Shown: positions 13,069-59,966, counted from the stretch's first letter. The stretch is DNA of 64,000 bases from Planctomycetota bacterium (GCA_016235155.1 JACRLW010000056.1:4005-68004), one strand, 5' to 3'. Numbers and translations are program-made. Notes: generated by a model not told the origin, from the sequence alone.

Positions 13069-13095
13069 CATCGAAGTGGCGCAATGCGCCACCCC
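13069..13095. repeat. Copy A of palindrome-containing 27-nt element (core GTGGCGCAATGCGCCAC)
   Basis: 'atCGAAGTGGCGCAaTGCGCCACCCC' between convergent gene ends 13009 and 13191. 8+8 nt inverted repeat around one central base. Near-identical to the copies at 52597 and 59157. Confidence 0.85.
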
Positions 13096-31014: not shown

Positions 31015-31019
31015 GCGGA

Positions 31020-32252
31020 TCAGGAGCCGAAGTCGTCGAACGCGATCTGTTCCTTCTCGACGCCGAGGTCGTACAGCATCTTCTGCACGGCCGAGAGCAT
31101 CATCGGGGGACCGCAGAGGTAGAACTCGATGTCGTCGACGTTCGGATGCGTCTTCAGGTAGTTGTCGAGCACCACCTGGTGGATGAACCCCCGAAAGCCG
31201 CTCCAGTTGTCCTCGGGCAGGGGCTCGGACAGCGCGATGTGGAACTTGAAGTTGGGAAACTCGCGCTCGATCTTGCGGAAGTGCTCCTCGTAGAACATCT
31301 CGCGCAGGGAGCGCGCGCCGTACCAGTACGACACCTTGCGTCCCGACTTCAGCGTGTGGAAGAGATGGAAGATGTGGCTGCGCAGCGGAGCCATGCCCGC
31401 GCCGCCGCCGATGTAGATCATCTCCTTCTGCGTGTCCTTGATGTGGAACTCGCCGTACGGCCCCGAGATGGTGATCTTGTCGCCGGGTTTCAGACCGAAC
31501 ACGTAGCTCGAGCAGATGCCCGGCGGGATGCCCTCGGTCCGCGGCGGCGGCGTGGCGATGCGGATGTTGAGCATCACCATGTTGCCCTCGGCCGGGTGAT
31601 TGGCCATCGAGTAGGCCCGGAAGATCGGCTCGGGGTTGTTGGCGACGTAGTCCCAGATCTTGTACTTGTCCCAGTCGGGGTGGTACTTCGGCGCGATCAC
31701 GAAGTCCTTGAACTTGATGCCGTGGTAGGCGGGCACGTCGATCTGGATGTAGCCGCCCGGTTCGAAGTGGATCGCCTCGCCCTTGGGCAGGTCGACGACG
31801 AGCTCCTTGATGAACGTCGCGACGTTGTCGTTGGAGCGGACCGTGCACTCCCACTTGCGGATCGCGAAGACCTCGTCGGGGACCCTCACCTTCATCGGCT
31901 GACGGACCTTCACCTGACACGCGAGACGCCAATGACTCTTGGCCTCGGACCGCGTGAGGTGCGTCATCTCCGACGGCAGGGGATCGCCGCCGCCTTCGAG
32001 GATCTGGCACTTGCACATCGCGCAACTGCCTTTCCCGCCGCACGCCGACGGCAGGAAGATCTTCTCGCTCGACAGTGCCTTCAGCAGATTGCTGCCGACG
32101 TCGACCATCGGCGACTTCGCATCGTCGCCGTTGATGAGCACCTTGACCTTGCCCTTACGGACCAGCTTGGTCTCGCAGAACATCAGCAAGAGGACCAGGA
32201 CGACGACCACCGCGGTCATCGCCAGCACGCCGGTCAGCACGACTTCGTACAT
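31020..32252 (-). CDS. nqrF: Na+-translocating NADH:quinone oxidoreductase subunit F
   Basis: ORF 31020..32252. N-terminal TM, 2Fe-2S '[12 protein letters not shown]', FAD/NAD domain 'RAYSMANHP', '[13 protein letters not shown]'. Confidence 0.95.
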
Positions 32253-32297
32253 CGATCGCTCCGCTTCGCGAAGGGCAGGTTCGTTGGATCCGCAGTC

Positions 32298-32927
32298 TCA
32301 GATCCCGCTGAAGGTCATGAACGCCATGGCCACGAGGCCGGTGGTGATGAAGGTGATCCCGAGGCCGCGCAGCGGCGCCGGCACGTTGGCCGTGCGCATC
32401 TTCCAACGGATCGCCGCCATGCTGACGATCGCCAGCGCCCAGCCGAACCCCGAGCCGAACCCGTAGACGACCGACTGCGCGAAGCCGTACTTGCGCTCGA
32501 CCATGAACAATGAGCCGCCGAGGATTGCGCAGTTCACGGCGATCAGCGGCAGGAAGATCCCGAGCGCCGCGTAGAGCTTCGGGCTGAACTTGTCGACCGC
32601 CATCTCCACCACCTGGACGACCGCGGCGATGCTCGCGATGAAGGTCACGAACTGGAGGTAGCTGAAATCGCTGTCGGGCATGCCGGCCCACGCCAAGGCG
32701 CCTTCGCCGAGGATGAAGTTCTGCAACGCCCAGTTCATGGGCACCGTCAGCAGCTGCACGAAGATCACCGCGATGCCGAGCCCGACCGACGAGTCGACGC
32801 GCTTGCTCACCGCGAGGTACGAGCACATCCCCAGGAAGAAGGAGAGGAGGATGTTCTCGACGAAGACCGACTTGAGGAACACGCCCACGAGGGGCTCGTC
32901 GTTCACGAAGGCGAGGATGGGGATCAT
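32298..32927 (-). CDS. nqrE: Na+-NQR subunit E
   Basis: ORF 32298..32927. '[20 protein letters not shown]', '[16 protein letters not shown]'. Confidence 0.9.
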
Positions 32928-32943
32928 GTGGGTCGTTCCTCCG

Positions 32944-33618
32944 TCAGTGCTTCTCGCTGTAGCCCGAGATGGATCGCTGGACCCAGACGATGACGCCCAG
33001 CAGGAGGAACGCCCCCGGCGCGAGCACCATCAGGCCATTGTTCACGTAGCCGGCGTCGTAGAGCGCCTGCGGCACGACGTGGAAGCCGAGCAGCGTGCCC
33101 GAGCCGAGGATCTCGCGGATCGTCCCGACCACGATCAGGATCCACATGTAGCCCAGGCCGTTGCCGATGCCGTCCAGGAAGCTCCGCCACGGCGGATTGC
33201 TCATCGCGTAGGCCTCGAGCCGGCCCATCACGATGCAGTTGGTGATGATGAGCCCGACGAAGACCGAGAGCTGCTTGCTCAGGTCGTACATGTAGGCCCG
33301 CAGGAACTGATCGAAGACGATCACGACCGAGGACACGACGACGAGCTGCACGATGATCCGGATCTTGTTCGGAATCAGGTTCCGGATGCAGGAGATCATC
33401 ACGTTGGAGAGCGCGGTCACCAGCGTGACGCCCAGCCCCATCACGATCGCCTTGTCGACGCGCGTCGTCACGGCGAGCGCCGAACAGATCCCCAGCACCT
33501 GCAGCGCGATCGGGTTGTTGTCCCAGAGCGGGTCCTTGATCGCCTTGACTTCGGCCTTGCCGAACAGCGGCGCCTTCGGTCTGGCCGTTACGACGGGAGC
33601 TGCGGTGGTGGCGGTCAT
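32944..33618 (-). CDS. nqrD: Na+-NQR subunit D
   Basis: ORF 32944..33618. '[19 protein letters not shown]', '[14 protein letters not shown]'. Confidence 0.9.
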
Positions 33619-42940: not shown

Positions 42941-42997
42941 TGGCGGCAGGATACCCGCGCGTGCCGTCGCCGATCCTCGGCGAGATCACCGCAGTCG

Positions 42998-43016
42998 AGG
43001 TGGCGCATTGCGCCGC
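42998..43016. repeat. Copy B (degenerate) of the palindromic element
   Basis: 'GAGGTGGCGCATTGCGCCGCG' in the gap between the 43171 gene end and the 42940 gene start. One arm is degenerate. Coordinates +/-2. Confidence 0.6.
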
Positions 43017-48523: not shown

Positions 48524-51500
48524 ATGGCCCCGCCGCACGACCTGGACCTCGCGCGCATCCGTCGCCGGCTCGGCGACGCATTCGAGCTGTTCGAGGTGCT
48601 CGGCGCCGGGGCGTCGGGCGCGGTGTTGAGGGCGCGCACGCGGAACGACGCGTACGGCGCGCCGGCCGGCAGCGACGTGGCGGTGAAGGTCCTGCGCGAG
48701 GAACTCGCGCGCGACGAGACGGCCCGCGCGACGCTGATCCGCGAGGCCGAGCTCGGCCGGCGGGTGCGCGACCCTCACGTCGTCGCGATCCTCGGCACGG
48801 GCGAACTCGACGATGAACATGGCCCGCTGCTGTTCCTGGTCAGCGAACTCGTGCGCGGACGCTCGCTCCGCGGGCGCATCCAGGCGCACGGCGCGGTGGT
48901 CGGCGATCTCGCGCGACGCATCGCGGAGCACACCTGTCTCGCGCTCGCCGCGCTCCACGAGGCGGGGATCGTCCACCGCGACGTGAAGCCGGAGAACCTG
49001 CTCGTCACCGACGGCGACGCCGAGGTGCGGCTCGCGGATCTCGGGCTCGCGCGCGCCGACGACGGGCCGTCGCCTCTCGGGAGCAGCTCCGGATTCCACG
49101 GCAGCCTCGCCTACGCGGCGCCCGAGCTGCTGACCGGCGGCGCGGCGACGGCGGCGAGCGACCTGTACGCGCTCGGCGTCGTGCTGTTCGAACTGCTCAC
49201 AGGGCGCCATCCGTTAGCCGGCGCGCGCGACGCGGACTCCTTGATCCGCGCCCAGCTGCACGACGCACCGCCGCGCGCGTCGCACCTCGAACCGCGCGTG
49301 TCGGCCTTCCTCGAGACGATGGTGCAGGAGCTCCTCGCGAAGGACAAAGCGGCCCGGCCGCAGCCCGCGCGCGACGTCGCCGCGATCTTCGCGCAGGGTG
49401 AGGCTTCGCCGTTCTGGCGCGAGCGCGAGGCACGGGCCCCGGCTCTGGCGTCGCGCCGCCGTCTGCTCGCGTTGCAGCGCACGCGCCACTGCGCCTTCGT
49501 CGACCGCACGGCGGAGGCGGCGCGTCTCGACGCCGCGTTCGCCGACGCCTGCGCCGGTCGCGGCCGTTCGATCGTCGTCGTCGGCCACGCGGGTTGCGGG
49601 CGGCGTCGCCTCCTCGGGTTCGATCGTCGTCGTCGGCCACGCGGGTTGCGGGCGGCGTCGCCTCCTCGGCGAACGCATCGGCAACTGGCTCGACGCCCGC
49701 GGCGACGTGGTCTTCCTCGGCGGCATCGCGGAGAACGAGCCGACGACCCGCTTCGGCGCGCCGTTCCCCAGGATGATCTGCGAGGTCCTTCTCGAAGGCG
49801 AACGCGAGGACGCGCCGCGCGCGCGCGAGCGCATCGCCGAGCGCGCGAAGGACCAGCTCGGCTTCGATGCCGAGGACTCGTTGCTCCTCGCGGAACTCTG
49901 TGCCGGCGACGCGCGGAAGATCAGCGCCGACCGCGGCTCGCGCGCCGACCTGCTCGCACGCGCGCTGGCGCGGATCGCGGCGCGCGGCGGACCGCTGGTC
50001 GTGCGCATCGACCGCTCCGACGACGCCAACTCCACCGCGGTGCGCGTGATCGAGCTGCTGATGCAGCGCTCGGTCGCGATGCACCTCCTCCTGCTGCTCG
50101 TGCGCACCAAGCCCTGGGACGGCGCCGTGCGTCCTGACGAGGAGATCGAGATCGGACCGCTGCCGCGCGAGGACTTCGTCGAACTCGCGCGGCGACTGTT
50201 CCGCGGGCGCGACGTCGACGAGCGCCTGATCGCCGACGCGCACGACGCGCTGGACGGGCAGCCGCGCGCACTGATCGAATGCCTCGAAGAGCTGGTGGCG
50301 GACGGCCGTCTCGCCGGCAGGCCCGGCGACTTCTTCGCGCTCGCGCCGACGGTCCTCGAACTGCGCCCCGCGCGCCCGATGCTGCACCGCGTGCGCGCGC
50401 GCATCGCGGCGCTGCCGCAGGCGCAGCGTCACGTGCTGCTCGCCGCCGCGGTGCTCGGCGACCGCTTCGAACTCGCCGACGTCGAAGCGCTGACCGGTCG
50501 CCCCGCGCTCGAGGTCCTCGACAGCCTCGGCGCGTTCGACAACCGGGTGGCGGGCATCGAAGGCGGCGAGGGCCGCTTCCGTCATCGCGAGTACCGCCTC
50601 GCGACGCTCGCGACCGTGCCGCCCGCCGCGCTGCGCGCCTTGCATCGCGACGCGGCGTGGGTCCGCGAGGATCGCGGCGCTCCGCCGTTCGAGGTCGGCA
50701 TGCACCTCTCGCGCGCGATGGAGCACGAGGCGTGCCTCGATCCACTGCTGCTCGGCCTCGACAACCTCGTGCGCGCCAGCGCGCGGCGCGCGGCCGTGCG
50801 ACTCGTCGAGCGACTGCATCTCCACCTCAACCGCCTGCCGCGCACGCCGGTGAACCTCGAGCGCCGTCTGCGCTGGCTGCTGCTCGCCGGTCGCTCCTGG
50901 CTCCTGCTCGACGACGAGGAGCGCGCCACGCGCTCGTTCAAGAAGGCGGTGCTGATCGCGATCCACGTGCAGCGGCCGCGCGAGCACGCCGAAGCGCTCG
51001 CCGGGCTCGCCGAACTCGCGCAGCTCCATTCGCGCTGGTTCGCCGCGATCCAGCTGCTGACCGCCGCCGATGCGTTGCTCGTCGACCTTCACGACGACGC
51101 GGCGCGCGCGGTCCGCACGCGGGTGTTGATGATCCACGCGCGCGTCCTCGCCTACCTCGGCGACGCGCAGCAGGCGCTCAAGCTCGCGGGTCAGGCGCTG
51201 CGCTCGCTGCCGCCGGGTCACGACGCGCTCGAAGCGCACCTGCGCATCGACTACGCGCGCTGGCTCGCGCTGCGGCTCCATCTCGTGCGCGCGATCGGCG
51301 AGCTCGACCGTGCGCGCGAACTCGCCCACCGTTGCGGCGACACCTATGCCGAAGCGCGCGTGCACCTCCACCGCGGCCGCAACCTCGGCATGCTCGGCGA
51401 GACGAAGGCCGCGCGCGCCGAACTGCGCGCCGCGCACGATCTCGCGGTCCGCATCGGCGACGCCCGCACGCGCGGTCGCGCGCGCCTCTTCGAAGCGGAA

Positions 51501-51935
51501 CTCGAGGTCTTCGTCGGCCGCGCCGAACGCACCAACGCCCTGCTCGAAGACGCCCTGCGCGAGGCCGAGATCGCCAGCGACGACGTGATGGCCGGCCATG
51601 CACGCGCCTGCCTGCTGCTCGCCGAACCGTCGCGGGAGCTGCCCGCGGAACCCGAGCGCATCGGCGCCCCGCTCGCCGACGTCATGCATCTGCTCGCGCA
51701 CGCGTTGCGGAAGCGTCGCGACGGCGACGAGCCCGGATCGAAACGGCTCCTGCGCGAAGCCTGCGCTCTCGAACACCGCGCGCGCGTCGTCCTCCCCCTG
51801 CGGCTCTTCCTCCTCCGCGCCGCCGACCGCGAGCTGGCCGCCGACAAGCTCGTCGCCGTCGCCATCGAGCGCATGCCGGCGGAGCATCGCAAGCGCTTCC
51901 TCGCCTGGGCGGAGCGGGTGCGGGTGCGGGGGTGA
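48524..51935 (+). pseudogene. Ser/Thr protein kinase - AAA_16-like NTPase - TPR/helical repeat protein, frameshifted by a 52-bp tandem duplication
   Basis: ORF 48524..50137 carries the kinase motifs 'VAVKVL', 'HRDVKPENLL', 'DLG', 'YAAPE', then '..GRGRSIVVVGHAGCGRRRLLG' before the frame is lost. ORF 49398..51935 re-reads 'GSIVVVGHAGCGRRRLLGERIGNWL..' and continues ~770 aa of sensible helical/TPR-like sequence. Removing one repeat copy gives a single ~1119-aa ORF. Confidence 0.8.
49566..49669. repeat. Exact 52-bp tandem duplication (2 copies)
   Basis: gttcgatcgtcgtcgtcggccacgcgggttgcgggcggcgtcgcctcctcgg occurs at 49566-49617 and again at 49618-49669. Both ORF-track translations confirm it. Confidence 0.9.
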
Positions 51936-51987: not shown

Positions 51988-52281
51988 ATGAAGCCGTTGT
52001 CCGAGGACCTCGACGACCCGCACGCACAGCCCTACTTCATCTGGGACGTGCCGATCACGGTGCGCGAACTGAAGGACATCCTCGCGGGCGAGGACGACGC
52101 CACGACCGCGCTGTGGACGGCGCGCGTCATGCGAGAAGCGCGCTATCCGGACGTGTGGCGCTTTCTGACGCTCGACCAGGTCGTCCGGCGCCACTCCCGT
52201 GCGGAGCGCCACCTCGGTCGTCGCCGCCGCTTCTGGAAGTTCCTGCTCGAAGGATGGCGCGCGGATGGACTGCTCCCCTGA
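51988..52281 (+). CDS. Small AbiEi-C-terminal-like (antitoxin-like) protein, 97 aa
   Basis: Tail of ORF 51598..52281, from ATG 51988 (MKPLSEDLDDPHAQPYFIWDVPITVRELKDIL..). The pattern 'F(I)WDV....L......ARV(M)REA...DVW.FL.L..V......HLGRRRRFWKFLLEGW' resembles partners of AbiEii-type nucleotidyltransferases. Overlaps the next ORF by 17 nt. Confidence 0.55.
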   Translation: MKPLSEDLDDPHAQPYFIWDVPITVRELKDILAGEDDATTALWTARVMREARYPDVWRFLTLDQVVRRHSRAERHLGRRRRFWKFLLEGWRADGLLP

Positions 52282-52507
52282 TCGCCTGACCGGACTGCAG
52301 CGCGCGCTGCTCGCGGCGTTCTTCGCGCGCGAGCAGCGCTTCGTCCTGACCGGCGGCGCCGCGCTCGGCGGTTTCTGACCCCACCACCGCGTCAGCCAGG
52401 ATCTCGATCGCTTCGCGCGCAACCCGCTCGATCTCGATCGCTATCGCGCGAGGCTCGTGCGCCGCTTGCGGCGCATGGCGCTGCCGCGCGACGGATCGAG
52501 CGCGTGA
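52265..52507 (+). pseudogene. AbiEii/AbiGii-like nucleotidyltransferase toxin remnant (in-frame TGA, truncated)
   Basis: My translation: MDCSPDRLTGLQRALLAAFFAREQRFVLTGGAALGGF*PHHRVSQDLDRFARNPLDLDRYRARLVRRL..*. It matches the family N-terminus (..LTGGTAL..FYL.HR.S.DLD.F) with TGA at 52376-52378 where an aromatic residue is expected. It stops after 80 codons, whereas family members as I recall them run to a few hundred aa. Confidence 0.6.
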
Positions 52508-52596
52508 CCGAGGGCTGAGCGTCGACCGGCACGCGCAAGCGCAGCGGTGCGGTCGACATGCGTAGCGCGCGAAGGCGCCACGCCGACCGACCACGG

Positions 52597-52623
52597 GCAC
52601 GAAGTGGCGCATTGCGCCACCCC
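52597..52623. repeat. Copy C of 27-nt element GCACGAAGTGGCGCATTGCGCCACCCC
   Basis: Identical over 27 nt to copy D. Contains the perfect palindrome GTGGCGCA-T-TGCGCCAC (52604-52620). Lies between convergent ends 52507 (+) and 52675 (-). Position confirmed through ORF 52547..52810 ('HEVAHCATP'). Confidence 0.9.
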
Positions 52624-52674
52624 GCGCCGCTCCGGTTCCGCGAGGCACGCCTCGATCCACGCGGGCTTGCGAGA

Positions 52675-53010
52675 TCACTCCGTCGAGCGCCGGTTCGCGC
52701 TCGCGGAAGCGATCTCGTCCTGCGCGAGCAACTCTTCCACCACGCGCGGCGACGCCTGCACGACGAACGAGCCGAGGCTCGGGAACACGTGCCAGTCCTC
52801 CACGCGCTAGCCGCTCGCCTTCTCCACGCGCGCGAGCAGTTCGCGCACCGTCGCCTGCGTCTCCTCCGCGACGGGCGCGCGGGAGCGCGCGGGCATCGTC
52901 GCGGACTTCAGGAAGAAGACGACCTGCACCGAACGCTTGGCCGCGGTCGCGGCTTCGAGCTGCTTTCGCAGCTCGGGGTCCTTGCCTTTGGAGTTCGAGT
53001 GCTTGGGCAC
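52675..53010 (-). pseudogene. Stand-alone subtilisin-propeptide (I9)-like mini-protein interrupted by in-frame TAG
   Basis: ORF 52807..53010 (MPKHSNSKGKDPELRKQLEAATAAKRSVQVVFFLKS..TVRELLARVEKASG) ends at TAG 52807-52809. The same frame continues RVEDWHVFPSLGSFVVQASPRVVEELLAQDEIASASANRRSTE* with strongly GC3-biased codons. The two halves together mimic the beta-alpha-beta-beta-alpha layout of the adjacent S8 gene's own N-terminal region. Confidence 0.5.
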
Positions 53011-53061
53011 GTCCGATCGTGGTTCGACGGCGCGGAAGTCTACGCGCGGGACGGCGCAGCG

Positions 53062-54384
53062 TCAGGATCGCAGCACGCGCAGCGCTTGCACGGCGTCGGG
53101 GATGCCGCGGTTGCCGCGCTGCTGCGGCATGCCCGAGGGCCGCTTGCACGATTGGAAGATGGCGCGCTCGACCTCGGCGACGGACCGCGTCGGCTCGGCT
53201 TGGATCAACAGCGCCGCGAGACCGGCGACATGCGGCGTGGCCATCGACGTGCCGTCCATGCTCTGCCAGCCACCGCCCGGCGCCGCGGAGATCACGTCGA
53301 CGCCCGGCGCGACCAGGTCCGGCACGATCGCCGCCTTCTTGCGCTTGAAGCGCTGGCTGCTCGAGAAGTCCGCGACGGCGGACGCATCGTCGTGGGCCCC
53401 GACCGAGAGCGCGTCGACGTAGTTGCCCGGCGAGCGGCTCGTGCCCGGCCCTTCGTTCCCGACCGCGAAGACCGGCAGCACGCGATTCGCGCGCAGGATG
53501 CGCGTCAGCATCACGAAGTCGTCCCACCAACCGCGGAAGCCCAGCGACATGCTGAGCACGCGCACGCCCTGGCCGAGCGACCAGTCCATTCCACCGAGCA
53601 CGCGCGCGACGACGTCGCCGCCTTCGATCACGACCGCGCTCGCAAGCTTCGCCTCCGGCGCGACTCCGACGTGCCGGCCGCTGACCGCCCGCCCCGCGAT
53701 CGTCGCCGCGGTGTGCGTGCCGTGATCGTCCGTGTCGAAGGGCTTGGGCGCCGGGGTCACCTCGCGGCCGAGGTCGTCGAACTCGGCGAAGCCCGCGATC
53801 GCCGTGCGCAGGGCCGGGTGTGCACCGTCGACGCCCGTGTCGAGGTGGCCGACGAGGACGCCCTCGCCGCGCAGGCCCTCGTTCTTCCACAGCTCGGGCA
53901 CCTTCATCGCTTCGATGCCCCAGGTCGTCTTCGCCGCAAGCTTCGCCGCGGCCTTCGCCGCCGGACGGATCAGGCTGAACGTCGGCGCGCCGGTGACCTT
54001 CGCGACCCGGGCGTCCGCGCGCAGCGCCGCGATGCCCTCCTTCGACGCAGTGCCGAGCATGATCCCGAGCCGGGGATAGACGCGGACCTGCGGAACCTCG
54101 CCGCGCCCGGCGCCGGCCTTCGCCACGCCGCTGCGCACGGCCGCGCGCAACGCGCGCCCTTCGCCCGCCGCGAGCCCGAGTTCGCTGGCCTGGCTGAGTT
54201 CACTGCTCCTGAAGTGCCTGGCGAGATCGCCGGCGGACGAGCTGCCGCGGGCCGGCGCGGCGCCGGTCGCGGCGAAGGCCGCGGCGCCCGCGGTCGCGGC
54301 GGCGCCGGACTCGGCGCCGCGCAAGAAGACGAGAACCTGCGCGACTCCGCGCGCGGAGAGCTCCTGTTGGATGATCGACGACAT
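53062..54384 (-). CDS. S8 (subtilisin-like) serine peptidase, no signal peptide, with N-terminal propeptide-like region
   Basis: Last 440 codons of ORF 53062..55026, from MSSIIQQELSARGVAQVLVFLRG (ATG 54382-54384, GGAG 7 nt upstream). Triad contexts 'VGHLDTGVD', 'HGTHTAATIAG', 'GTSMATPHVAGLAALL'. Confidence 0.85.
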   Translation of the reverse strand: MSSIIQQELSARGVAQVLVFLRGAESGAAATAGAAAFAATGAAPARGSSSAGDLARHFRSSELSQASELGLAAGEGRALRAAVRSGVAKAGAGRGEVPQVRVYPRLGIMLGTASKEGIAALRADARVAKVTGAPTFSLIRPAAKAAAKLAAKTTWGIEAMKVPELWKNEGLRGEGVLVGHLDTGVDGAHPALRTAIAGFAEFDDLGREVTPAPKPFDTDDHGTHTAATIAGRAVSGRHVGVAPEAKLASAVVIEGGDVVARVLGGMDWSLGQGVRVLSMSLGFRGWWDDFVMLTRILRANRVLPVFAVGNEGPGTSRSPGNYVDALSVGAHDDASAVADFSSSQRFKRKKAAIVPDLVAPGVDVISAAPGGGWQSMDGTSMATPHVAGLAALLIQAEPTRSVAEVERAIFQSCKRPSGMPQQRGNRGIPDAVQALRVLRS

Positions 54385-54566
54385 GTTCGTGCTCCAAGGC
54401 TGCGGCCCGAGGACGTGAGTGGGCCGCAAGGTATGAAGCGAACGAGCGGGGTGCCGTCCGCCACAATTCTTCGGCGAGGCATGTAACGTCTCGGCCCCCT
54501 GCCCTGGTGAAGAGGCAGGACGGCCGGTCCGCGCCGGCCAGCGCACGGCTTCGAACGAGCAAACCC
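54385..54566. promoter_or_regulatory. Shared divergent upstream region of the S8 peptidase and CHAT-STAND genes
   Basis: 182-nt non-coding gap between divergently oriented start codons, so it must hold both promoters. No specific motif identified. Confidence 0.4.
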
Positions 54567-57500
54567 ATGACCCCACGCTCGCTCCGCGTCTGCTGTTTCG
54601 ACCTCGCCTCCGCCGGCCAAGGTGGCGCGCTGCGCCTGCAGATCCCGGGGCGCCCGCTCGCCGAAGCGCGCGTCGTGACGGCCGTCGATCTCGCGGCGAT
54701 CGCGGCCGGCGCCGAGACCCTTCGCGACGCCGAACGCGCGCGGCGCAGCGGCTCCAGGGTCGATCCGGCGGGACCGATGCGGGCGCACGGCGAGGCGATC
54801 TACCGGCTGCTCGACGGCCCGGGGCGCGACCTGACGTCCGCGCTGCACGACGCGCACGAACACGGCTGCGATCTGCTCGTCGTCGTCCGGCTGCTCGGCA
54901 ATCCCCGCACGCACCCGGCCTGCGGCTGGCGCTTCGAACTCGCGCACGACGGCGACGGACACGTCGCGCGGCGCCGCGGCGTGCAGTTCGTGGTGCAGTA
55001 CGGCGATCGCGCGGTCGGCGAACCACAGCGCCTCGATCACGGCCGGCTGCGCATCCTGTTCATGGCCTACTCGCCGCAGGGCGTCGAGCCCGTGCTCGAC
55101 TACGAAGGCGAGGAGGAAGCCGTGCTCGAAGCGCTCGCGCCGAACGTCGAGGCCGGCCGCGTGAGCGTCGAGGTCGTCGAGGACGGCACGCTCGCCGAAC
55201 TCGGGCGACGCCTCAAGACCGCGCGCTACGACGTCGTCTACCTCAGCGGGCACGGCGAGCTCCGCGAGGACGGGCCGGTGCTGTTGCTCGAGGACGAGGT
55301 TGGCGGACTCGATCTCGTGGGCACCGAGCGCCTGTTCGACGCGCTCGCGCGCGGGCAGACCATGCCGCAGCTCGTCGTGCTCGCGTCGTGCGAGACCGCG
55401 GGCAACCGCGACGACGTGGCGAGCATGGCGGCCGGCCTCGTCGCGCGCGGCGTTCCCGCGGTGCTCGGCTGGGTCCGCCCCGTCGCCGACGCGGACGCGA
55501 CGCAGGCGAGTCGTGATCTCCTCGACCAACTCGCGACCGGGCACGCGCTGCCCGAGGCCGCGGCGTTCGCACGGCGCGAACTCGCCGACACCGACGCGAA
55601 GCGGCACGCGCCGGCGCGCACGCACGGCTGGTCGACCATGCACCTCGCGACCGGCGAGGCCGCGGGCTTCGCGCTCGACGTCGGCGTTCCCCCACCGGAG
55701 GCGGGCCTCGCGCCACCGACCGAGATCTACAAGTTCCTCGGCGACGGCCGCATGCGCGTGCTGCAGCAGGGCTTCGTCGGGCGCCGCCGCGCGCTGCAGC
55801 GCCTGATCCGCATCCTCCGTCACGGCAAGGACGGCGACGCGACGCGCGCGGGCGCGGTCGTGATCGGCATGAAGGGGGTCGGCAAGTCCTGCCTCGCCGG
55901 CCGCGCGATCGACCGACATGGCCAGGACAGCGGCGAGCTCGCGCTGCTCGTGCTCCACGGCGCACTCGACGACGCGACCGTCCTCGAACACGCGCGGCGC
56001 TGCGCCGTCGCGTCCGGCGACCGGGAGGCGGAGAAGGTGCTGGAGAACGTCAACGAGCCGGTCGAGCGGCGCATCGAGCGCCTGCTGCTCGGCCGCTGGA
56101 GCAAGCGCGCGCTGGTCGTCGTGCTCGACGACTTCGAGAAGAACCTCGAGCTGTGTCCCGACGGCCTCGCGCGCCTCTCGCCCTTCGCCGCCCCTCTGCT
56201 CGGCACGCTGCTGCCCGCCTGCCGCACGGCCAAGGCGAAGGTCCTGATCACGAGCACCGTCGACTTCGAGCTGGCGCCGCAGCTCCAGGGCTCGCTCAGC
56301 GCGATCGAACTCGGCCCGCTCGAACCGAGCGACGTCCGCAAGCTCTGGACGCGCGGCCGCGAGACCGACCTGCGGGACGTCTCGCCCGCGCAGTGGGACG
56401 CGCTCGCCGAGCGCCTCGGCCGCAACGCCCGCATCCTCGACTGGGCGCGCATCCTGCTCGGCGGCCGCAGCTCGCGCGAGATCGAGGACCTCGTCGCGAA
56501 GGCGCAGGCGGAACTGCCGGTGTGGCGCGAGGGCGCCGGGGATGTCGACGCGCAGACCCGGCTCGTCGAGCTGTTCCTCTTCCACTCCGCGCTCGACCGC
56601 GCGCAAGCCGAGGCGCACCCGGACGTGCGCGTGTTCCTCGAGCGCGCGCGGGTCTACGAACTCGCGGTACCGATCGAAGCGTTGCTGCCGATGGGCGATG
56701 GCCTTCAGCTCGACCTCCGCCGCGAGATCCCGGCGCTGGCGAACGTCGGGCTGCTCGAGTTCGGCAGCTTCGAGGGTGGGCGGGGCTACCGGGTGAGTCC
56801 GCTGGTCGTCGCGGAGTTAGCTGTCGCCGACGCTGAGCGCTGGCACCGCGCGGCAGCCCAGTACTTTGAGGGGGTGTCGAACACGAGGCATGGCCGGCGA
56901 GCTGATCTCATTACGCGCGCATGGGAGCATTCGCTCTTCGCGGACACCGAAGACCTCTCAGACCGCCTCGGAAGCCAACTCCGGGCACACCTGCACCTGG
57001 AGGGCCTGTACAGCATGGCCTATTCCATGGCCGAGCGTCAGATTCGCGCGTATCCACACAGCTTTTTCGCCGCACTCTGGGCGGGAGATGCCGCACTCGA
57101 TGCTGGACGAGTGTCAGAGGCCAGAACGCATTTCGAACTCGCGGATCTCCATGCAGAGCGTCCCGACATCGACCCGCTGCTCGTCGCAATGCTCCATCAT
57201 CAGTACGCACGAGTTCTCGCGACACAAGGCGAGTTCGACAGCGCATGCGAACGGCTAGGGAGCTCCTACGCACTCCTCCTTAGGTGCTTTGGTACGGAGG
57301 CACGTCTTGAGATTGCAACGTCTCTTCACCAGCTCGCAGTGACATTGAGCGATCGGCGAAAGCCGCTCGAGGCGCTCCCAGTAATCACACGTGCACTCGG
57401 AATCCGCCGGGCCCTTCTTGGAACGGATGAGCACCGCGACGTCGCAGCAGACGTCCACGAACTTGCGCGAGTCCTGCGCGCACTCGATAGGCTGCCAGAG

Positions 57501-58265
57501 GCAAGAGCGCAAATAGAGCATTCAGTGGCAATCAAACGTAGGCTCTTTCCAGACAACGATCACCGGGACGTCGCTGCCAGCCTACACGAACTTGGGTCCA
57601 TACACCGAGCTCAAGGAAACCTTACAGATGCTGGTGCTTGCCTGACGCAGGCGCTTACCGTGCAGCGGCGCGTGTACACGACCGATGATCACCCGGACGT
57701 CGCGGGCACGCTTCACGAACTTGCGCTGGTCCTCTTTGAGCAGCAAGCAGCCGACGCTGCAATAGAGTCTTTGAGGAAGGTGCTGACGATCGAGAGTCGG
57801 ATCTACCACACGCGCAATCACTACAGGCTGGCTGAGTCCGAGTTTGCTCTCGGGATGATGCTTATCGAGAACGACAAGGCAGAGGAAGGCACGGAGTTCG
57901 TGAATCACGCCCTCGAGGTCCTGCGCGCACAGGTGCCCGGGCATCCGATTCTGCAGCAGATCGCGCGCATCTCACCGGTGAACGTCGCCAGAGCTGCGCT
58001 CGGGGCGCGACAGAGCGGAGAGCGCGGTGACGCCCTCGATCAGGGTCTCGACGCACTGCACAAGGCCGGCGAGCCGCACGCGACCGTGGCGGCGTACCTC
58101 GACGCGATCGCGCGACGCGCCGGTCCGGCGCTCGTGCCACTCCCCGGCGGCGCTCGCTCGCTCGATGACGTGGCGCGTGACCTGCCCGAGGACATCGCGA
58201 AGTTCCTCCGCACGGTTCGTGACGCCGCCCTGGCCGCGGATGCCGCGCGCGAGGGCCCTGCCTAA
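54567..58265 (+). CDS. CHAT (caspase-like) protease - STAND P-loop NTPase (NB-ARC/NACHT-like) - TPR repeat protein, 1232 aa
   Basis: ORF 54507..58265; ATG 54567 preferred (GTG 54507 possible). Caspase-type dyad contexts 'DVVYLSGHGEL' and 'QLVVLASCETAGN'. Walker A 'VVIGMKGVGKSCLAGRAI', Walker B 'ALVVVLDDFEKN'. C-terminal array of TPR_12-like units ('DEHRDVAADVHELARVLRAL', 'NDHRDVAASLHELGSIHRAQG', 'DDHPDVAGTLHELALVLFEQ'). Confidence 0.85.
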   Translation: MTPRSLRVCCFDLASAGQGGALRLQIPGRPLAEARVVTAVDLAAIAAGAETLRDAERARRSGSRVDPAGPMRAHGEAIYRLLDGPGRDLTSALHDAHEHGCDLLVVVRLLGNPRTHPACGWRFELAHDGDGHVARRRGVQFVVQYGDRAVGEPQRLDHGRLRILFMAYSPQGVEPVLDYEGEEEAVLEALAPNVEAGRVSVEVVEDGTLAELGRRLKTARYDVVYLSGHGELREDGPVLLLEDEVGGLDLVGTERLFDALARGQTMPQLVVLASCETAGNRDDVASMAAGLVARGVPAVLGWVRPVADADATQASRDLLDQLATGHALPEAAAFARRELADTDAKRHAPARTHGWSTMHLATGEAAGFALDVGVPPPEAGLAPPTEIYKFLGDGRMRVLQQGFVGRRRALQRLIRILRHGKDGDATRAGAVVIGMKGVGKSCLAGRAIDRHGQDSGELALLVLHGALDDATVLEHARRCAVASGDREAEKVLENVNEPVERRIERLLLGRWSKRALVVVLDDFEKNLELCPDGLARLSPFAAPLLGTLLPACRTAKAKVLITSTVDFELAPQLQGSLSAIELGPLEPSDVRKLWTRGRETDLRDVSPAQWDALAERLGRNARILDWARILLGGRSSREIEDLVAKAQAELPVWREGAGDVDAQTRLVELFLFHSALDRAQAEAHPDVRVFLERARVYELAVPIEALLPMGDGLQLDLRREIPALANVGLLEFGSFEGGRGYRVSPLVVAELAVADAERWHRAAAQYFEGVSNTRHGRRADLITRAWEHSLFADTEDLSDRLGSQLRAHLHLEGLYSMAYSMAERQIRAYPHSFFAALWAGDAALDAGRVSEARTHFELADLHAERPDIDPLLVAMLHHQYARVLATQGEFDSACERLGSSYALLLRCFGTEARLEIATSLHQLAVTLSDRRKPLEALPVITRALGIRRALLGTDEHRDVAADVHELARVLRALDRLPEARAQIEHSVAIKRRLFPDNDHRDVAASLHELGSIHRAQGNLTDAGACLTQALTVQRRVYTTDDHPDVAGTLHELALVLFEQQAADAAIESLRKVLTIESRIYHTRNHYRLAESEFALGMMLIENDKAEEGTEFVNHALEVLRAQVPGHPILQQIARISPVNVARAALGARQSGERGDALDQGLDALHKAGEPHATVAAYLDAIARRAGPALVPLPGGARSLDDVARDLPEDIAKFLRTVRDAALAADAAREGPA

Positions 58266-58274
58266 GCTCGCGGC

Positions 58275-58967
58275 ATGGAGCCGAGTCGGATGGAAGCGCT
58301 GCGCCGGACCCTCGAACGCCAGTTCAGCGAACCCGACGGCGAGCAGCGCACCCGCGCCGAGCGCCTGCGCAGCCGGCTCTGGCCACGGTTGCGCCGGCAA
58401 CTGGACGAACACCCCCGCACGAGGGCCCGGCTCGACGCGCACACGGCGACGGACTCCGAGCTGCTCGCCCGCATGCGCGACGGCGACGCCGAGGCCTTCG
58501 ACCTGGCCTTCGCGCGACACGGCGCAGCGCTCCTCGCCTTCGCCGCGCGTTCGCTGCCGCTGCACGACGCCGAGGAGGCGACCCAGGACGCGTGGCTCGA
58601 TCTCGTCGAGAAGCGCGCCTCGCTCCCGCTCGCCGTCGAACTGCGGCCGTACCTGTTCGGCTTCGTCCGCATCGCCGTGCTCCGCGCGCTCGCGAAGCGC
58701 GTGAGCCTCGAAGCCCTGCCCCAGGACCTCGTCGACGACGCCGCAAGCGACGCCATCCTCGCCGCCTGTCGCAAGGAGGACGACGAGCGACTCGCGGCCG
58801 CGCTCGCGACGCTCGACGTGCTGGAGCAGGAGCTGATCCTCCGCTCACTCGCGGGCGAGACCGGCACGGTGATCGCGACAGCCCTCGGACTCACGCCCGG
58901 CAACGAGCGTGTGCGCAAACACCGCGCGATCCGGAGGCTCAGGCGCGCGCTCGGGAGCGCACCATGA
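58275..58967 (+). CDS. ECF-type sigma-70 family RNA polymerase sigma factor with ~55-aa N-terminal extension
   Basis: ORF 58275..58967, 9 nt after the CHAT-STAND stop. Region 2 'SELLARMRDGDAEAFDLAFARHGAALLAFAARSL..AEEATQDAWLDLV'. Region 4 'LEQELILRSLAGETGTVIATALGLTPGNERVRKHRAIRRLRRAL'. Confidence 0.85.
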   Translation: MEPSRMEALRRTLERQFSEPDGEQRTRAERLRSRLWPRLRRQLDEHPRTRARLDAHTATDSELLARMRDGDAEAFDLAFARHGAALLAFAARSLPLHDAEEATQDAWLDLVEKRASLPLAVELRPYLFGFVRIAVLRALAKRVSLEALPQDLVDDAASDAILAACRKEDDERLAAALATLDVLEQELILRSLAGETGTVIATALGLTPGNERVRKHRAIRRLRRALGSAP

Positions 58968-59149
58968 GCGGAGGCCGCCGCCCGGACCCGAACGCGACCA
59001 GGCGCGAGGCACGCCTCCGCGCACAGCTCGTGGCGCTCGAGATCCGCAAGGCCGCGACCGCCGACCGTCGATTCACCGCGCTCGCCGCGCGCCTTCGCTC
59101 GCGCCTGCGCGAGGTCGTGCGCGCCGCGCTCGCGCGCCGGGCGCAGTGA
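58964..59149 (+). CDS. 61-aa Arg-rich helical protein, translationally coupled to the sigma factor (possible anti-sigma/partner)
   Basis: Tail of ORF 58592..59149. ATG 58964 overlaps the sigma stop (ATGA). MSGGRRPDPNATRREARLRAQLVALEIRKAATADRRFTALAARLRSRLREVVRAALARRAQ. No TM or Zn motif. In this GC context coding status is uncertain. Confidence 0.4.
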   Translation: MSGGRRPDPNATRREARLRAQLVALEIRKAATADRRFTALAARLRSRLREVVRAALARRAQ

Positions 59150-59150
59150 C

Positions 59151-59966
59151 TCACCCGCACGAAGTGGCGCATTGCGCCACCCCCATCCCCCGCCACGCCA
59201 GCGACCACCGCAGCTTCCTCGCCATCCGTTCCCACGCGACGCGACGCGCGGTGCGCTCCATCCCCATGCCCCGCAGGAACTCCGTGAAGTCGCGCGCGCG
59301 GACTGTCACGCCGAGTTCCCGTTGATGGCGACGGAGCCAGCGCGCCATGCGGACGAGCATCGCGTCGCGGCGCGCCAAGCTCAGCGCGTCGACCAGTTCG
59401 GCGCGGTCGAGGTCGAGCAAGACGACTTCGACGGCGCCGCCGCTCGCGGCGCGCGCGATCAGGTTGGCGGGGTGGAGGTCGCGATGGTCCAGTCCCGCGG
59501 AGAAGGCCTGCGCGACGACGGCGCCGGCGCGGCGCAGCGCTTCCCTCCGCAGGTCCGTGCGCGCGGCGACGAACGACGGCAGAGGCAAGGCGTCGCGCAC
59601 GAGCAGGGTCGCGAGGCGCAGTGATCGGAACGGACCGCGACGGCGCGCGAGGGCGGCGACCGACTCGACGACCGCGACTCCGCGCGCGCGCAGGGCGGCG
59701 GTGACCGCGAGTTCGCCGAACGCGCGTTGCTCCGAGAGGAACAGGTCGGGCAGGAGCCGGCGCAATGCGCCGCCGCGCTTGTAGTCGCGCAGCGCGACGT
59801 CGAGCCCGGCGATGCGCGCGATGCGCACGCCGCCGCGGCCGAGAGCGCCGTCGAGCGGCACGCCGTCCTGCCAGAACTCCGCGAGCGGAACCGCCGCGAG
59901 ATCACTGCGCACGAGGGCCAGATCGCCGCCGTCCGTCCGTCGCACGTAGCCCGCGGGAGTCGTCAA
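59151..59966 (-). CDS. Kdo/LPS kinase (KdkA/InaA) family protein
   Basis: Tail of ORF 59151..60287. Start proposed at TTG 59966 (MTTPAGYVRRTDGG). 'VALRDYKRGGALRRLLPD', 'TLLVRDALPL', 'GLDHRDLHPANLI', 'VVLLDLDRAE'. Confidence 0.65.
   Translation of the reverse strand: MTTPAGYVRRTDGGDLALVRSDLAAVPLAEFWQDGVPLDGALGRGGVRIARIAGLDVALRDYKRGGALRRLLPDLFLSEQRAFGELAVTAALRARGVAVVESVAALARRRGPFRSLRLATLLVRDALPLPSFVAARTDLRREALRRAGAVVAQAFSAGLDHRDLHPANLIARAASGGAVEVVLLDLDRAELVDALSLARRDAMLVRMARWLRRHQRELGVTVRARDFTEFLRGMGMERTARRVAWERMARKLRWSLAWRGMGVAQCATSCG
59157..59183. repeat. Copy D of 27-nt element GCACGAAGTGGCGCATTGCGCCACCCC
   Basis: Identical to copy C and in the same orientation. Starts 8 nt after the 61-aa ORF stop and forms the last ~10 codons (..GVAQCATSCG*) of the convergent LPS-kinase-like gene. 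Position confirmed through ORF 58909..59325 ('HEVAHCATP'). Confidence 0.9.

What the first reader, a model, noticed from the sequence alone, without database searches (positions are those of the whole stretch)
56810..57960. ~1.1 kb low-GC tract embedded in the TPR sensor region of the CHAT-STAND gene
Hand counts of four 60-nt lines inside the tract (57241, 57301, 57541, 57601) give 32-37 G+C of 60 (53-62%). Lines in the same gene's flanks give 41 of 60 (55261) and 46 of 60 (58381), i.e. 68-77%. Within the tract the antisense frames fill with stops and with Lys/Ile/Phe/Asn codons, unlike everywhere else in the window. The reading frame stays intact and still encodes TPR units. A compositional discontinuity confined to the C-terminal repeat (putative ligand-sensing) part suggests recent recombinational replacement or horizontal acquisition of the sensor. 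That pattern is expected for diversifying immune-type receptors.
Basis: partly seen in the sequence, partly recalled or inferred. Interest (0 to 1): 0.6.

Follow-up and report, generated by a model that had tools for sequence, protein, structure and literature searches.

The report
Low-GC hypervariable sensor in a bacterial NLR-like gene
A 1.1-1.2 kb stretch with unusually few G/C at silent codon positions marks the fast-diverging sensor repeats of a caspase-like bacterial immune-type receptor, and since every relative examined has the same trough it is a standing property of this gene family and not a recent foreign insert.

Summary
GC falls from 0.72-0.76 to 0.58-0.61 at about 56.8-58.0 kb. 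The drop is almost all at third codon positions (GC3 0.92 outside, 0.65 inside, 0.48-0.60 in the core). Rare codons rise from 2% to 23%. Only about 1-5 of 1,271 long ORFs in this genome show such an interior block.

The tract is the kinesin-light-chain-type TPR array of a CHAT (caspase-like)-P-loop NTPase-TPR protein. The gene sits in a conserved module: S8 subtilase | CHAT-NTPase-TPR | ECF sigma | 61-aa ORF.

The trough coincides with a hypervariable block. The closest homologue is 86-88% identical upstream and about 40% identical inside. Silent-site divergence is 3-17 times deeper inside the block in four close pairs, and dN/dS never exceeds 1. Sub-block mosaicism in relatives shows recombination.

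The recent-foreign-import reading is not supported:
- All eight other family genes examined share the trough (weakly in one from a lower-GC host).
- The TPR tree has the same clades as the N-terminal tree.
- No donor above 42% identity exists among 5.8 billion proteins.

Best reading: old sensor alleles are exchanged within clades, and GC-favouring forces are weak inside the block. The cause of the low GC3 is inferred, not shown.

The parts
53062..54360 (-). S8 subtilase, divergently transcribed from the CHAT gene; a conserved neighbour in homologous loci. The true start lies within this frame and was not mapped.
   Evidence: Pfam Peptidase_S8 E=7e-46. PADLOC 'subtilase' 2.1e-25. The same arrangement occurs in L014, L015, L016 and L017.
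54567..58265 (+). CHAT (caspase-like protease)-P-loop NTPase-TPR gene, 1232 aa from the ATG at 54567. The ORF is open from a GTG at 54507, and residue numbers in this report count from 54507.
   Evidence: ORF. Pfam CHAT 6.9e-21, AAA_16 5e-6, TPR_12 1.1e-28. The database copy P0002 is 1232 aa.
55092..55634 (+). CHAT protease domain (residues 196-376) with invariant His249 and Cys295.
   Evidence: Pfam. G248-H249-G250 and C295 are invariant in 30 family members.
55773..56141 (+). P-loop NTPase core (residues 423-545). Walker A is G454..G457-x-G459-K460-S461; Walker B is D541-D542.
   Evidence: AAA_16 match at 27.5 bits, below the 32.6 cut-off. The motif residues are invariant in the 30-sequence alignment.
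56814..58058 (+). GC3 trough and hypervariable block (codons 770-1184). The core is about 56,980-57,730 with GC3 0.48-0.64. It has gradient edges, not sharp ones.
   Evidence: Change-point model and 50-codon profile. GC/GC3 profiles. Identity to P0003 drops from 0.87 to about 0.40 over the same span. dS is 1.2 or more, or saturated, against 0.27.
56994..57911 (+). Kinesin-light-chain-type TPR (TPR_10/TPR_12) array, about residues 830-1135, with 43-residue units. This is the putative ligand sensor.
   Evidence: Pfam. PDB sequence hits are only to KLC-type TPR domains, residues 876-1134. 129-nt periodic repeat copies lie at 57423, 57552 and 57681.
57963..58265 (+). C-terminal non-TPR tail (residues 1153-1252). 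It is 60-83% identical to P0003 with GC3 about 0.82, but silent-site divergence is as deep as in the tract.
   Evidence: Four-fold distance 1.76, n=51.
58275..58967 (+). ECF-type sigma factor, 230 aa, 10 nt downstream of the CHAT gene. It is a conserved neighbour.
   Evidence: NCBIfam TIGR02937 sigma70-ECF 45.5 bits, above the 42.9 cut-off. Weak Pfam r2 and r4_2 hits. It is syntenic in L014, L015, L016/17, L018, L019 and L020.
58964..59149 (+). 61-aa basic ORF overlapping the sigma stop codon by 4 nt. It is a candidate anti-sigma or protease substrate (inferred).
   Evidence: Reading frame. ORFs of 67-97 aa in the same position, overlapping the sigma stop, occur in homologous loci. No family hit.
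52592..52623 (+). Left copy of a 32-nt repeat with a palindromic core, upstream of the module.
   Evidence: 94% identical to the copy at 59152-59183. The core also occurs at 13073 and 42997.
59152..59183 (+). Right copy of the same repeat, just after the 61-aa ORF.

Best explanation
**What it is (shown).** The tract is the hypervariable TPR sensor array of an NLR-like CHAT-NTPase-TPR protein. [quoted passage not shown]

**How the block evolves (shown and inferred).**
- Shown: across the family the N-terminal protease and NTPase parts evolve slowly. The TPR block between close relatives is 3-17 times more diverged at both silent and replacement sites, with dN/dS below 1.
- Shown in relatives: sub-blocks have different histories in different pairs of genes.
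- Inferred: anciently diverged sensor alleles persist within each clade, as expected for immune-type receptors under frequency-dependent selection. They are swapped by homologous recombination anchored in the conserved flanks and in individual repeats.

**Why GC3 is low (inferred).**
- Shown: the GC3 trough is a standing feature of this block in every family member examined.
- Inferred: it does not come from a foreign donor. The force that holds GC3 near 0.95 elsewhere in these genomes is GC-biased gene conversion and/or selection on codon usage. That force is ineffective inside long-lived allele classes that are too diverged to form heteroduplex and have small effective population sizes. AT-biased mutation then pulls silent sites down.

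**How the module works (inferred by analogy).** Ligand binding by the TPR array would trigger NTP-dependent oligomerisation and activate the CHAT protease. The protease would then cleave a sigma inhibitor (the 61-aa ORF or the sigma's N-terminal extension) and/or other targets, switching on an ECF-sigma regulon.
For: **Identity of the tract**
- Domains and motifs.
- Conserved synteny in seven loci.

**Hypervariable block coincides with the trough**
- P0001 vs P0003 identity is 0.86-0.88 (residues 1-760), about 0.40 (770-1150) and 0.60-0.83 (tail).
- A register-free window test also gives 0.40, against 0.87 for the N-terminal control.
- Other close pairs show the same: P0004/5/6 are 96-97% identical in the N-terminal part and 66-73% in the TPR part.

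**Silent and replacement divergence both raised**
- NG86 dS is 0.27 vs 1.2 or more (window-L013), and 0.05-0.11 vs 0.6-2.0 (L014/15/16). Omega is 0.1-0.8.
- Composition-corrected four-fold distances are 0.50 vs 1.52, 0.17 vs 1.10, 0.09 vs 1.52 and 0.22 vs 1.03.

**Recombination, not constant hypermutation**
- L014-L015 TPR codons 360-540 have distance 0.20, equal to their N-terminal level. The same block in L014-L016 is 1.32.

**Family-wide trough**
- L013, L014 (weaker), L015 and L016; L019 and L021; the L022 paralogue.
- It is small in L018, whose host locus GC is 0.587.

**Not a generic TPR effect**
- TPR_12 arrays from relatives, matched only through their repeats, stay at 0.65-0.71 GC.
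- The neighbouring kinase-AAA_16 gene keeps GC3 at 0.84-0.96.
- The least conserved protein segments (residues 1-100 and 1150-1252) keep GC3 at 0.82-0.88.

**Not a distant import**
- The TPR tree shares its clades with the N-terminal tree. Terminal branches are 0.84 and 1.26 against 0.07, while deep branches are of similar length.
- No donor above 42% identity.

**Edges are gradients**
- Both identity and GC3 change gradually over about 100 codons at each edge.
- Flank silent divergence (0.97 at residues 701-760) is intermediate. This is expected around a long-maintained polymorphism and not after one clean replacement.

**Background and functional analogy**
- A link between recombination and GC3 in bacteria is proposed in PMC4450053.
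- Functional analogy: PMC10028731, PMC11506125, PMC8195603.
Against: - The cause of the low GC3 was not tested directly.
- Only one close relative of the window gene exists in the collections searched. Recombination is therefore demonstrated in the L014/15/16 clade and only inferred for the window gene.
- The C-terminal tail has silent divergence as deep as the tract (1.76, n=51) yet GC3 of about 0.82. Depth of divergence alone does not predict GC3.
- L014 has a shallower trough than its near relatives.
- Tree comparison in repeat arrays depends on an uncertain alignment.
- No experiment links this family to defence, and PADLOC models give no real match.
Confidence: 0.5

Rival explanations
1. 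Recurrent horizontal import. TPR blocks enter these high-GC genomes repeatedly from lower-GC relatives carrying the same gene family. They keep the donor's composition because they are replaced again before they ameliorate.
For: - The tract's GC3 (0.48-0.64) resembles that of a roughly 58-60% GC genome.
- A family member does live in such a host: L018 has locus GC 0.587, and P0007 falls in the same six-member clade.
- The whole gene is absent from 40 related genomes, including the same genus, so the module is accessory.
- In L018 it sits beside a recombinase, an MmeI-type methylase, a Macro-domain gene and an RHS gene.
- Silent sites in the block are near saturation against the closest homologue.
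Against: - No donor: the best non-self match to the tract is 41-42% identical in 5.8 billion proteins.
- Window vs P0007 TPR identity is only 0.41.
- The TPR tree keeps the same clades as the N-terminal tree.
- All eight other family genes show the trough, which would need many independent imports from unsampled sources.
- N-terminal parts of different clades are only 40-70% identical. That is too diverged to anchor homologous exchange across clades.
- The edges are gradients, not sharp junctions.
Confidence: 0.2
2. Selection for AT-ending or rare codons within the sensor repeats. Possible purposes are slowing translation for co-translational folding of the solenoid, keeping the level of a dangerous protease-receptor low, or reducing DNA identity between repeats.
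For: - The trough persists across family members that are only 40% identical. Silent sites would long since have equilibrated over that distance, so some force maintains it.
- 22.8% of tract codons are rare, against 2.1% in the rest of the gene.
Against: - Other TPR_12 arrays in related high-GC genomes show little or no dip.
- The trough depth varies widely between near-identical relatives (L014 vs L015/L016).
- Silent sites in the block are nearly randomised between close relatives. This argues against strong site-specific synonymous constraint.
- Low expression could be achieved by rare codons anywhere in the gene, yet the N-terminal 770 codons have GC3 of 0.88-0.98.
Confidence: 0.15
3. Targeted local hypermutation with an AT bias acts on the TPR block, through a DGR-like or error-prone repair process. 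It would raise both dS and dN and lower GC3.
For: - Both silent and replacement divergence are raised 3-17-fold in the block with dN/dS below 1.
- Terminal branches are inflated and deep branches are not.
- DGR-driven hypermutation of STAND sensors is known in multicellular bacteria (PMC10907252).
Against: - No reverse transcriptase (RVT_1) in the 85%-complete assembly.
- No second copy of the tract that could serve as a template repeat.
- Known DGR targets in STAND proteins are CLec folds with VRs of about 100-150 nt, not 1.2-kb TPR arrays (PMC10907252).
- L014 and L015 share a TPR sub-block with silent divergence no higher than their N-terminal parts (0.20 vs 0.17). The block therefore does not mutate constitutively faster.
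Confidence: 0.08
4. Assembly artefact. The metagenome-assembled contig is chimeric in the repeat region, joining reads of a different, lower-GC population.
For: - The genome is a 152-contig assembly, 85.5% complete.
- Repeat regions and strain variants are prone to mis-assembly.
Against: - The frame is intact across both edges.
- The composition changes gradually.
- The same trough occurs in eight other genes from independent assemblies of different samples and phyla. One of them is a genome deposited under a strain name, Pyxidicoccus sp. 3LG.
Confidence: 0.02

Closest known systems
Bacterial and fungal NLR-like STAND receptors with variable C-terminal repeat sensors (Avs/bNACHT; fungal TPR/WD/ANK NLRs; the 'diversifying NTP-dependent conflict systems' of Kaur et al. 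2020, PMC7159879)
   Same: - Tripartite layout: N-terminal effector (here a CHAT caspase-like protease), central P-loop NTPase, C-terminal repeat array.
- The repeat array is by far the most variable part.
- The TPR type is the kinesin-light-chain-like TPR_10/12 also found in fungal NLRs. One PDB hit, 4y6c, is a Podospora protein.
   Different: - No match to curated defence models: PADLOC gives only a weak BovA hit, E=1e-5.
- No high-internal-conservation repeats. TRF finds none, and units are about 31% identical to each other.
- The sensor block carries a family-wide GC3 trough that I did not find described.
- The gene is tightly linked to an ECF sigma and a small ORF.
Type III-E CRISPR Craspase: the TPR-CHAT protease Csx29 cleaves the sigma inhibitor Csx30 and releases an ECF-like sigma (PMC10028731)
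   Same: A CHAT protease with a TPR region is encoded next to an ECF-type sigma factor and small partner protein(s). The logic would be 'sensor activates CHAT, CHAT relieves sigma inhibition, transcriptional response follows'.
   Different: - No CRISPR/Cas7-11 is present.
- Activation would come from an NTPase-TPR sensor, not from RNA-guided target binding.
- The domain order is CHAT-NTPase-TPR, not TPR-CHAT.
- The 61-aa ORF has no detected similarity to Csx30 or Csx31.
- Cleavage is untested.
[quoted passage not shown]
   Same: A CHAT+TPR protein is genetically paired with an ECF sigma. The lineages overlap: many family members are from Myxococcota.
   Different: - DdvA itself is the anti-sigma, with an N-terminal zinc-binding anti-sigma domain, a TM helix and no NTPase.
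- The window protein has a P-loop NTPase and no anti-sigma domain hit.
- The domain order is reversed.
Low-GC hypervariable loci under diversifying selection in bacteria (O-antigen/capsule clusters, hsdS target-recognition domains, flagellin central domains). This comparison rests on my own knowledge, not on a tool result.
   Same: A polymorphic, recombination-shuffled specificity determinant has lower GC than its conserved flanks and than the genome.
   Different: - Here the trough lies inside one ORF of a 70% GC genome.
- It is almost purely synonymous (GC3 0.95 to 0.55).
- It is shared by homologues across phyla with a congruent tree.
- These points argue against the classical explanation of import from a low-GC species.
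DGR-diversified STAND sensors (PMC10907252)
   Same: Targeted diversification of the C-terminal sensor of STAND conflict proteins, some with CHAT effectors and neighbouring S8 peptidases.
   Different: No reverse transcriptase, no template repeat, a TPR fold instead of CLec, and a block ten times longer than a DGR variable region.

Membership tests
STAND/NLR-like tripartite receptor | N-terminal effector domain with intact catalytic residues | tested here: met
   Pfam CHAT 75.4 bits, above the 24 cut-off, residues 196-376. His249 and Cys295 are invariant in 30 homologues.
STAND/NLR-like tripartite receptor | Central STAND-class P-loop NTPase (Walker A/B plus STAND-specific helical/winged-helix modules) | tested here: inconclusive
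   Walker A GxxGxGKS (454-461) and Walker B DD (541-542) are invariant. AAA_16 scores only 27.5 bits, below the 32.6 cut-off. STAND-specific downstream modules were not tested by structure.
STAND/NLR-like tripartite receptor | C-terminal repeat (sensor) array | tested here: met
   TPR_12 99.7 bits (cut-off 30.1) and TPR_10 64.1 bits (cut-off 27.5). KLC-type TPR hits in PDB. Ligand sensing itself is not tested.
Known antiviral STAND (Avs) or other curated defence systems | Match to a curated defence-system protein model | tested here: not met
   PADLOC gives only BovA at E=1.1e-5, 22 bits, over the CHAT region. There are no hits for the sigma or the 61-aa ORF. NCBIfam has no family for the CHAT gene.
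Craspase (type III-E Csx29 TPR-CHAT) | TPR-then-CHAT order, association with Cas7-11 and Csx30/Csx31 | tested here: not met
   The order here is CHAT-NTPase-TPR. The neighbours are S8, ECF sigma, a 61-aa ORF, a Kdo-like kinase and an ABC ATPase, with no cas genes.
Craspase-like logic (CHAT protease coupled to an ECF sigma) | ECF sigma factor encoded adjacent and conserved in synteny | tested here: met
   TIGR02937 at 45.5 bits, above the 42.9 cut-off. A sigma plus small ORF lies downstream in L014, L015, L016/17, L018, L019 and L020. Proteolytic control is not testable here.
DdvA-type TPR-CHAT anti-sigma | N-terminal zinc-binding anti-sigma domain and a single TM helix | tested here: inconclusive
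   No anti-sigma domain hit in Pfam. TM helices were not predicted. The presence of an NTPase and the reversed domain order argue against membership.
DGR variable-region target | Reverse transcriptase and a template repeat matching the variable region | tested here: not met
   No RVT_1 in the assembly, although controls were detected. blastn of the tract against the genome finds only itself. The assembly is 85.5% complete.
Recently acquired foreign segment (compositional island) | Atypical composition private to this genome, a donor-like relative elsewhere, and a phylogeny incongruent with the flanks | tested here: not met
   The same trough occurs in eight other family genes. No donor above 42% identity. 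The TPR tree has the same clades as the N-terminal tree.
Recombination-shuffled hypervariable allele block (balanced polymorphism type) | Silent-site divergence much deeper than the flanks, dN/dS not above 1 needed, and segments with discordant histories | tested here: met
   Four-fold distances are 3-17 times the flank value. Discordance is shown only in relatives. For the window gene only depth and edge gradients are shown.

The most novel reading that the evidence does not exclude
A synonymous-site GC trough may be a general, sequence-only hallmark of long-lived, balanced sensor alleles in high-GC bacteria. It would arise because GC-biased gene conversion (or weak selection on codons) cannot act inside blocks that are too diverged to pair. 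If so, intragenic GC3 troughs would flag immune-receptor specificity domains without any homology information. This gene family would then be a natural experiment separating the gene-conversion and selection explanations of bacterial GC content.
Probability: 0.2. Interest if true: 0.75.

Novelty: new variant of a known kind. Interest (0 to 1): 0.5.

Why it matters
- **Annotation caution.** Hypervariable sensor domains of NLR-like proteins are known, and low-GC segments are routinely read as foreign DNA. Here the two coincide inside one ORF. The comparative data argue that the low GC is not imported but maintained in a vertically structured gene family. This is a caution for island-calling by composition in high-GC genomes.
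- **A test case for GC content.** The family offers a concrete test of what holds bacterial GC3 high, recombination-linked conversion or selection.
- **An uncharacterised module.** The conserved module (S8 subtilase | CHAT-NTPase-TPR | ECF sigma | small ORF) looks like a protein-sensing counterpart of the Craspase-Csx30-sigma circuit. It is not covered by current defence-system models.

Tried and rejected
- **Paralogous gene conversion within the genome.** Rejected: blastn of the tract finds only itself, and the genome has a single family member.
- **Recent repeat expansion or concerted evolution of TPR units.** Rejected: TRF finds no array in the tract. Units are about 31% identical to each other, less than to the best unit of a homologue.
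- **Repeat-register misalignment as the cause of the identity drop.** Rejected by the register-free window test.
- **Amino-acid composition of TPRs as the cause.** Rejected: GC1 and GC2 barely change, and other TPR_12 arrays do not dip.
- **Low GC3 as a mere by-product of weak protein constraint.** Rejected: the least conserved N- and C-terminal 100 residues keep GC3 at 0.82-0.88.
- **Donor search.** A search with the tract alone found nothing above 42% identity.
- **Search for more close alleles.** Genome contigs and metagenome contigs returned only distant relatives.
- **First genome-wide GC3 scan.** It was confounded by stop-to-stop 5' extensions and was redone with a phase filter.
- **The 27/32-nt 'bracketing' direct repeat as an att pair.** Not supported as such: the palindromic core recurs at two other sites in the window.
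- **Python access to fetched loci.** Most fetched loci were not available in the Python box. DNA was imported through alignments A2 and A3.

Full report
**1. The observation**

The compositional discontinuity is real.
- In 300-nt windows GC is 0.577-0.61 from about 56,850 to 57,950, and 0.72-0.76 on both sides within the same ORF.
- The change is almost entirely at third codon positions. GC3 falls from 0.84-0.98 to 0.53-0.67, while GC1 and GC2 move little.
- A two-breakpoint likelihood model puts the block at codons 770-1184, nt 56,814-58,058. GC3 is 0.65 inside and 0.92 outside, 2*dLL = 128. The core has GC3 0.48-0.64 at about 56,980-57,730.
- The whole assembly (5.34 Mb, GC 0.704) has a 1-kb window sd of 0.026. 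The tract lies in the lowest 0.4% of windows.
- Among 1,271 long ORFs, only about 1-5 have an interior low-GC3 block with a coding-like phase pattern. An earlier, naive version of this scan was confounded by ORF extensions.
- Codons that are rare in this genome make up 22.8% of the tract, against 2.1% of the rest of the gene.
- The frame is intact.
The nqr/ApbE operon at 30.9-33.5 kb is also at 0.60-0.64 GC.

**2. What the gene is**

- The ORF is 54507/54567-58265. It encodes a CHAT caspase-like protease domain (residues 196-376), a P-loop NTPase (AAA_16-like, residues 423-545) and TPR_12/TPR_10 repeats.
- In an alignment of 30 homologues, the CHAT His249/Cys295 dyad, the Walker A GxxGxGKS motif and the Walker B DD motif are invariant.
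- The only solved-structure relatives by sequence are kinesin-light-chain-type TPR domains, matching residues 876-1134.
- The repeats have 129-nt (43-residue) periodicity.
- The neighbours are conserved. A divergently transcribed S8 subtilase lies at 53062-54360. An ECF-type sigma factor lies 10 nt downstream (TIGR02937 above its cut-off). A 61-aa ORF overlaps the sigma stop codon.
- The sigma plus small ORF follow the homologous gene in L014, L015, L016/17, L018, L019 and L020. The subtilase precedes it in L014-L017.
- The gene has no orthologue in 40 related genomes, including three of the same genus. It matches no curated defence model.

**3. The tract coincides with a hypervariable block**

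- The nearest homologue is P0003, from a groundwater metagenome contig (L013). It is 86-88% identical over residues 1-760, about 40% over 770-1150, and 60-83% over the C-terminal tail.
- The drop is not a repeat-register artefact. The best ungapped 34-residue match anywhere in P0003 averages 0.40 across the tract, against 0.87 for an N-terminal control.
- Other close pairs behave alike. P0004, P0005 and P0006 are 96-97% identical in the N-terminal part and 66-73% in the TPR part.
- P0003 is 328 residues longer, mostly whole-repeat insertions.

**4. Silent sites**

I imported homologue DNA through alignments A2 and A3.
- By Nei-Gojobori, window vs L013 has dS 0.27 and dN 0.067 in the NTPase region. 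Inside the tract dS is 1.2 or more, or saturated, and dN is 0.42-0.68.
- L014, L015 and L016 have dS 0.05-0.11 in the N-terminal part and 0.6-2.0 in the TPR part.
- dN/dS is 0.1-0.8 and never exceeds 1.
- Extreme GC3 can distort such estimates, so I also computed a composition-corrected distance at four-fold sites. The values (conserved part vs TPR core) are 0.50 vs 1.52, 0.17 vs 1.10, 0.09 vs 1.52 and 0.22 vs 1.03.
- Both silent and replacement divergence are therefore 3-17 times deeper in the block. In-situ positive selection on amino acids alone would not raise dS.

**5. Recombination or hypermutation**

- L014 and L015 share a TPR sub-block (codons 360-540 of the imported segment). Its four-fold distance is 0.20, the same as their N-terminal parts.
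- In L014 vs L016 the same sub-block is at 1.32, although their N-terminal parts are closer (0.09).
- Segments of the array therefore have discordant histories. That is recombination, and it shows the block does not mutate constitutively faster.
- No reverse transcriptase is present in the assembly. The tract has no second copy that could act as a DGR template.

**6. Is the low GC foreign?**

- Every family member examined has the same trough. L013 is 0.61-0.66 against 0.70-0.77. L015 and L016 fall to 0.59-0.65. L014 is weaker.
- N-terminal GC3 is 0.91-0.96 in all five genes, and TPR bins are 0.48-0.90.
- L019 is 0.55-0.61 against 0.66-0.74. L021, from Pyxidicoccus, is 0.57-0.62 against 0.67-0.72.
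- An Acidobacteriota paralogue (L022) has GC3 0.80-0.94 falling to 0.60-0.74.
- In L018, from a host of about 59% GC, the contrast is small.
- A search with the tract alone against 5.8 billion proteins found nothing above 42% identity. The best hits are the same CHAT-TPR family, largely Myxococcota.
- A maximum-likelihood tree of the TPR block recovers the same clades as the N-terminal tree. The window gene is still paired with P0003 (SH-aLRT 74). Terminal branches are 0.84 and 1.26 instead of 0.07, and deep internal branches are of similar length.
It is thus largely met for the 'recent horizontal acquisition' reading.
- The effect is not generic to TPRs. TPR_12 arrays from related high-GC genomes, matched only through their repeats, stay at 0.65-0.71. 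The neighbouring kinase-AAA_16 gene keeps GC3 at 0.84-0.96.
- The effect does not simply track weak protein constraint. The least conserved 100 residues at each end keep GC3 at 0.82-0.88.

**7. Explanation**

- Family members 40% identical have long since randomised their silent sites. A trough shared by all of them must therefore be maintained, not inherited as a scar.
- The reading that fits most results is that old sensor alleles persist within clades and are exchanged by homologous recombination anchored in the conserved flanks and repeats. Inside such blocks the GC-favouring force acts weakly, so AT-biased mutation lowers GC3. That force is GC-biased gene conversion linked to recombination, as proposed for bacteria in PMC4450053, or weak selection on codon usage.
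- The gradient edges of both identity and GC3, and the intermediate silent divergence of the adjacent flank (0.97 at residues 701-760), fit a long-maintained polymorphism better than one clean replacement.
- This causal step is inference.
- One observation does not fit neatly. The C-terminal tail has silent divergence as deep as the tract (1.76, n=51) but GC3 of about 0.82.
- The rivals are recurrent import from lower-GC relatives, selection for rare codons, targeted hypermutation and assembly artefact. They are scored in the rival section.

**8. Function (inferred)**

- By analogy with NLR-like STAND receptors, the TPR array would bind a ligand, the NTPase would drive oligomerisation and the CHAT protease would be activated.
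- The tight, conserved link to an ECF sigma and a small ORF recalls two systems. In Craspase, the TPR-CHAT protease Csx29 cleaves the sigma inhibitor Csx30 (PMC10028731). In M. xanthus, the TPR-CHAT anti-sigma DdvA is paired with DdvS (PMC11506125).
- Caspase-ECF sigma-TPR associations were also noted computationally in PMC8195603.
- Membership in those families fails on domain order, the absence of cas genes and the absence of an anti-sigma domain. The claim is 'works like', not 'is a'.

**9. Limits**

- Only one close relative of the window gene exists in the collections.
- Repeat alignments make the TPR tree approximate.
- No experiment bears on function.

**Verdict.** This is a new variant of a known kind, of moderate interest.

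Noticed in passing
window 30,900-33,600 (- strand): This is the second low-GC stretch of the window (0.60-0.64). It is an nqr-type operon: NqrF-like Fer2/FAD/NAD protein, two Rnf-Nqr membrane subunits, and ApbE. Here the whole operon is compositionally atypical, unlike the intragenic trough of the CHAT gene.
   Followed up: partly
window 13073-13095, 42997-43016, 52601-52623, 59161-59183: A palindromic element with core GAAGTGGCGCATTGCGCCAC occurs at four sites (0 expected by chance). Two copies flank the S8/CHAT/sigma module 6,560 nt apart. It looks like a dispersed REP-like hairpin, not a specific att pair.
   Followed up: partly
window 48524-51935 (+): A Ser/Thr kinase ORF (Pkinase E=1.7e-42) and an overlapping AAA_16 ORF in another frame look like one gene split by a frameshift near 49.4-50.1 kb. 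GC3 of the first ORF collapses in its last 450 nt, consistent with reading out of frame. Its C-terminal part shows no GC3 trough.
   Followed up: partly
L020 6001-16110 (Acidobacteriota MAG JBCCFW010000069.1): Three CHAT-NTPase-TPR paralogues stand in tandem around a single sigma/small-ORF pair. The family can therefore expand locally, which would supply substrates for block exchange.
   Followed up: no
L018 1-16224: In a host of about 59% GC the module sits between a serine recombinase, an MmeI-type methylase, a Macro-domain gene and an RHS toxin gene. The N-terminal part of the CHAT gene has GC3 of 0.70-0.78, above its neighbours (0.60-0.64). This suggests the whole module was acquired there from a higher-GC lineage.
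   Followed up: partly
window 57963-58265: The C-terminal non-TPR tail is well conserved in protein (60-83% to P0003). Its four-fold-site divergence (1.76, n=51) is nevertheless as deep as in the hypervariable tract, while GC3 is only mildly lowered (0.82). The deeply diverged block may run to the end of the gene or beyond. L013 ends 51 nt after the stop, so the sigma gene could not be compared.
   Followed up: partly
window 52558-54486 (+) and 52127-53890 (-): These long ORFs upstream of the CHAT gene have no Pfam hits. They overlap the subtilase frame and are probably high-GC stop-free artefacts, not genes.
   Followed up: no
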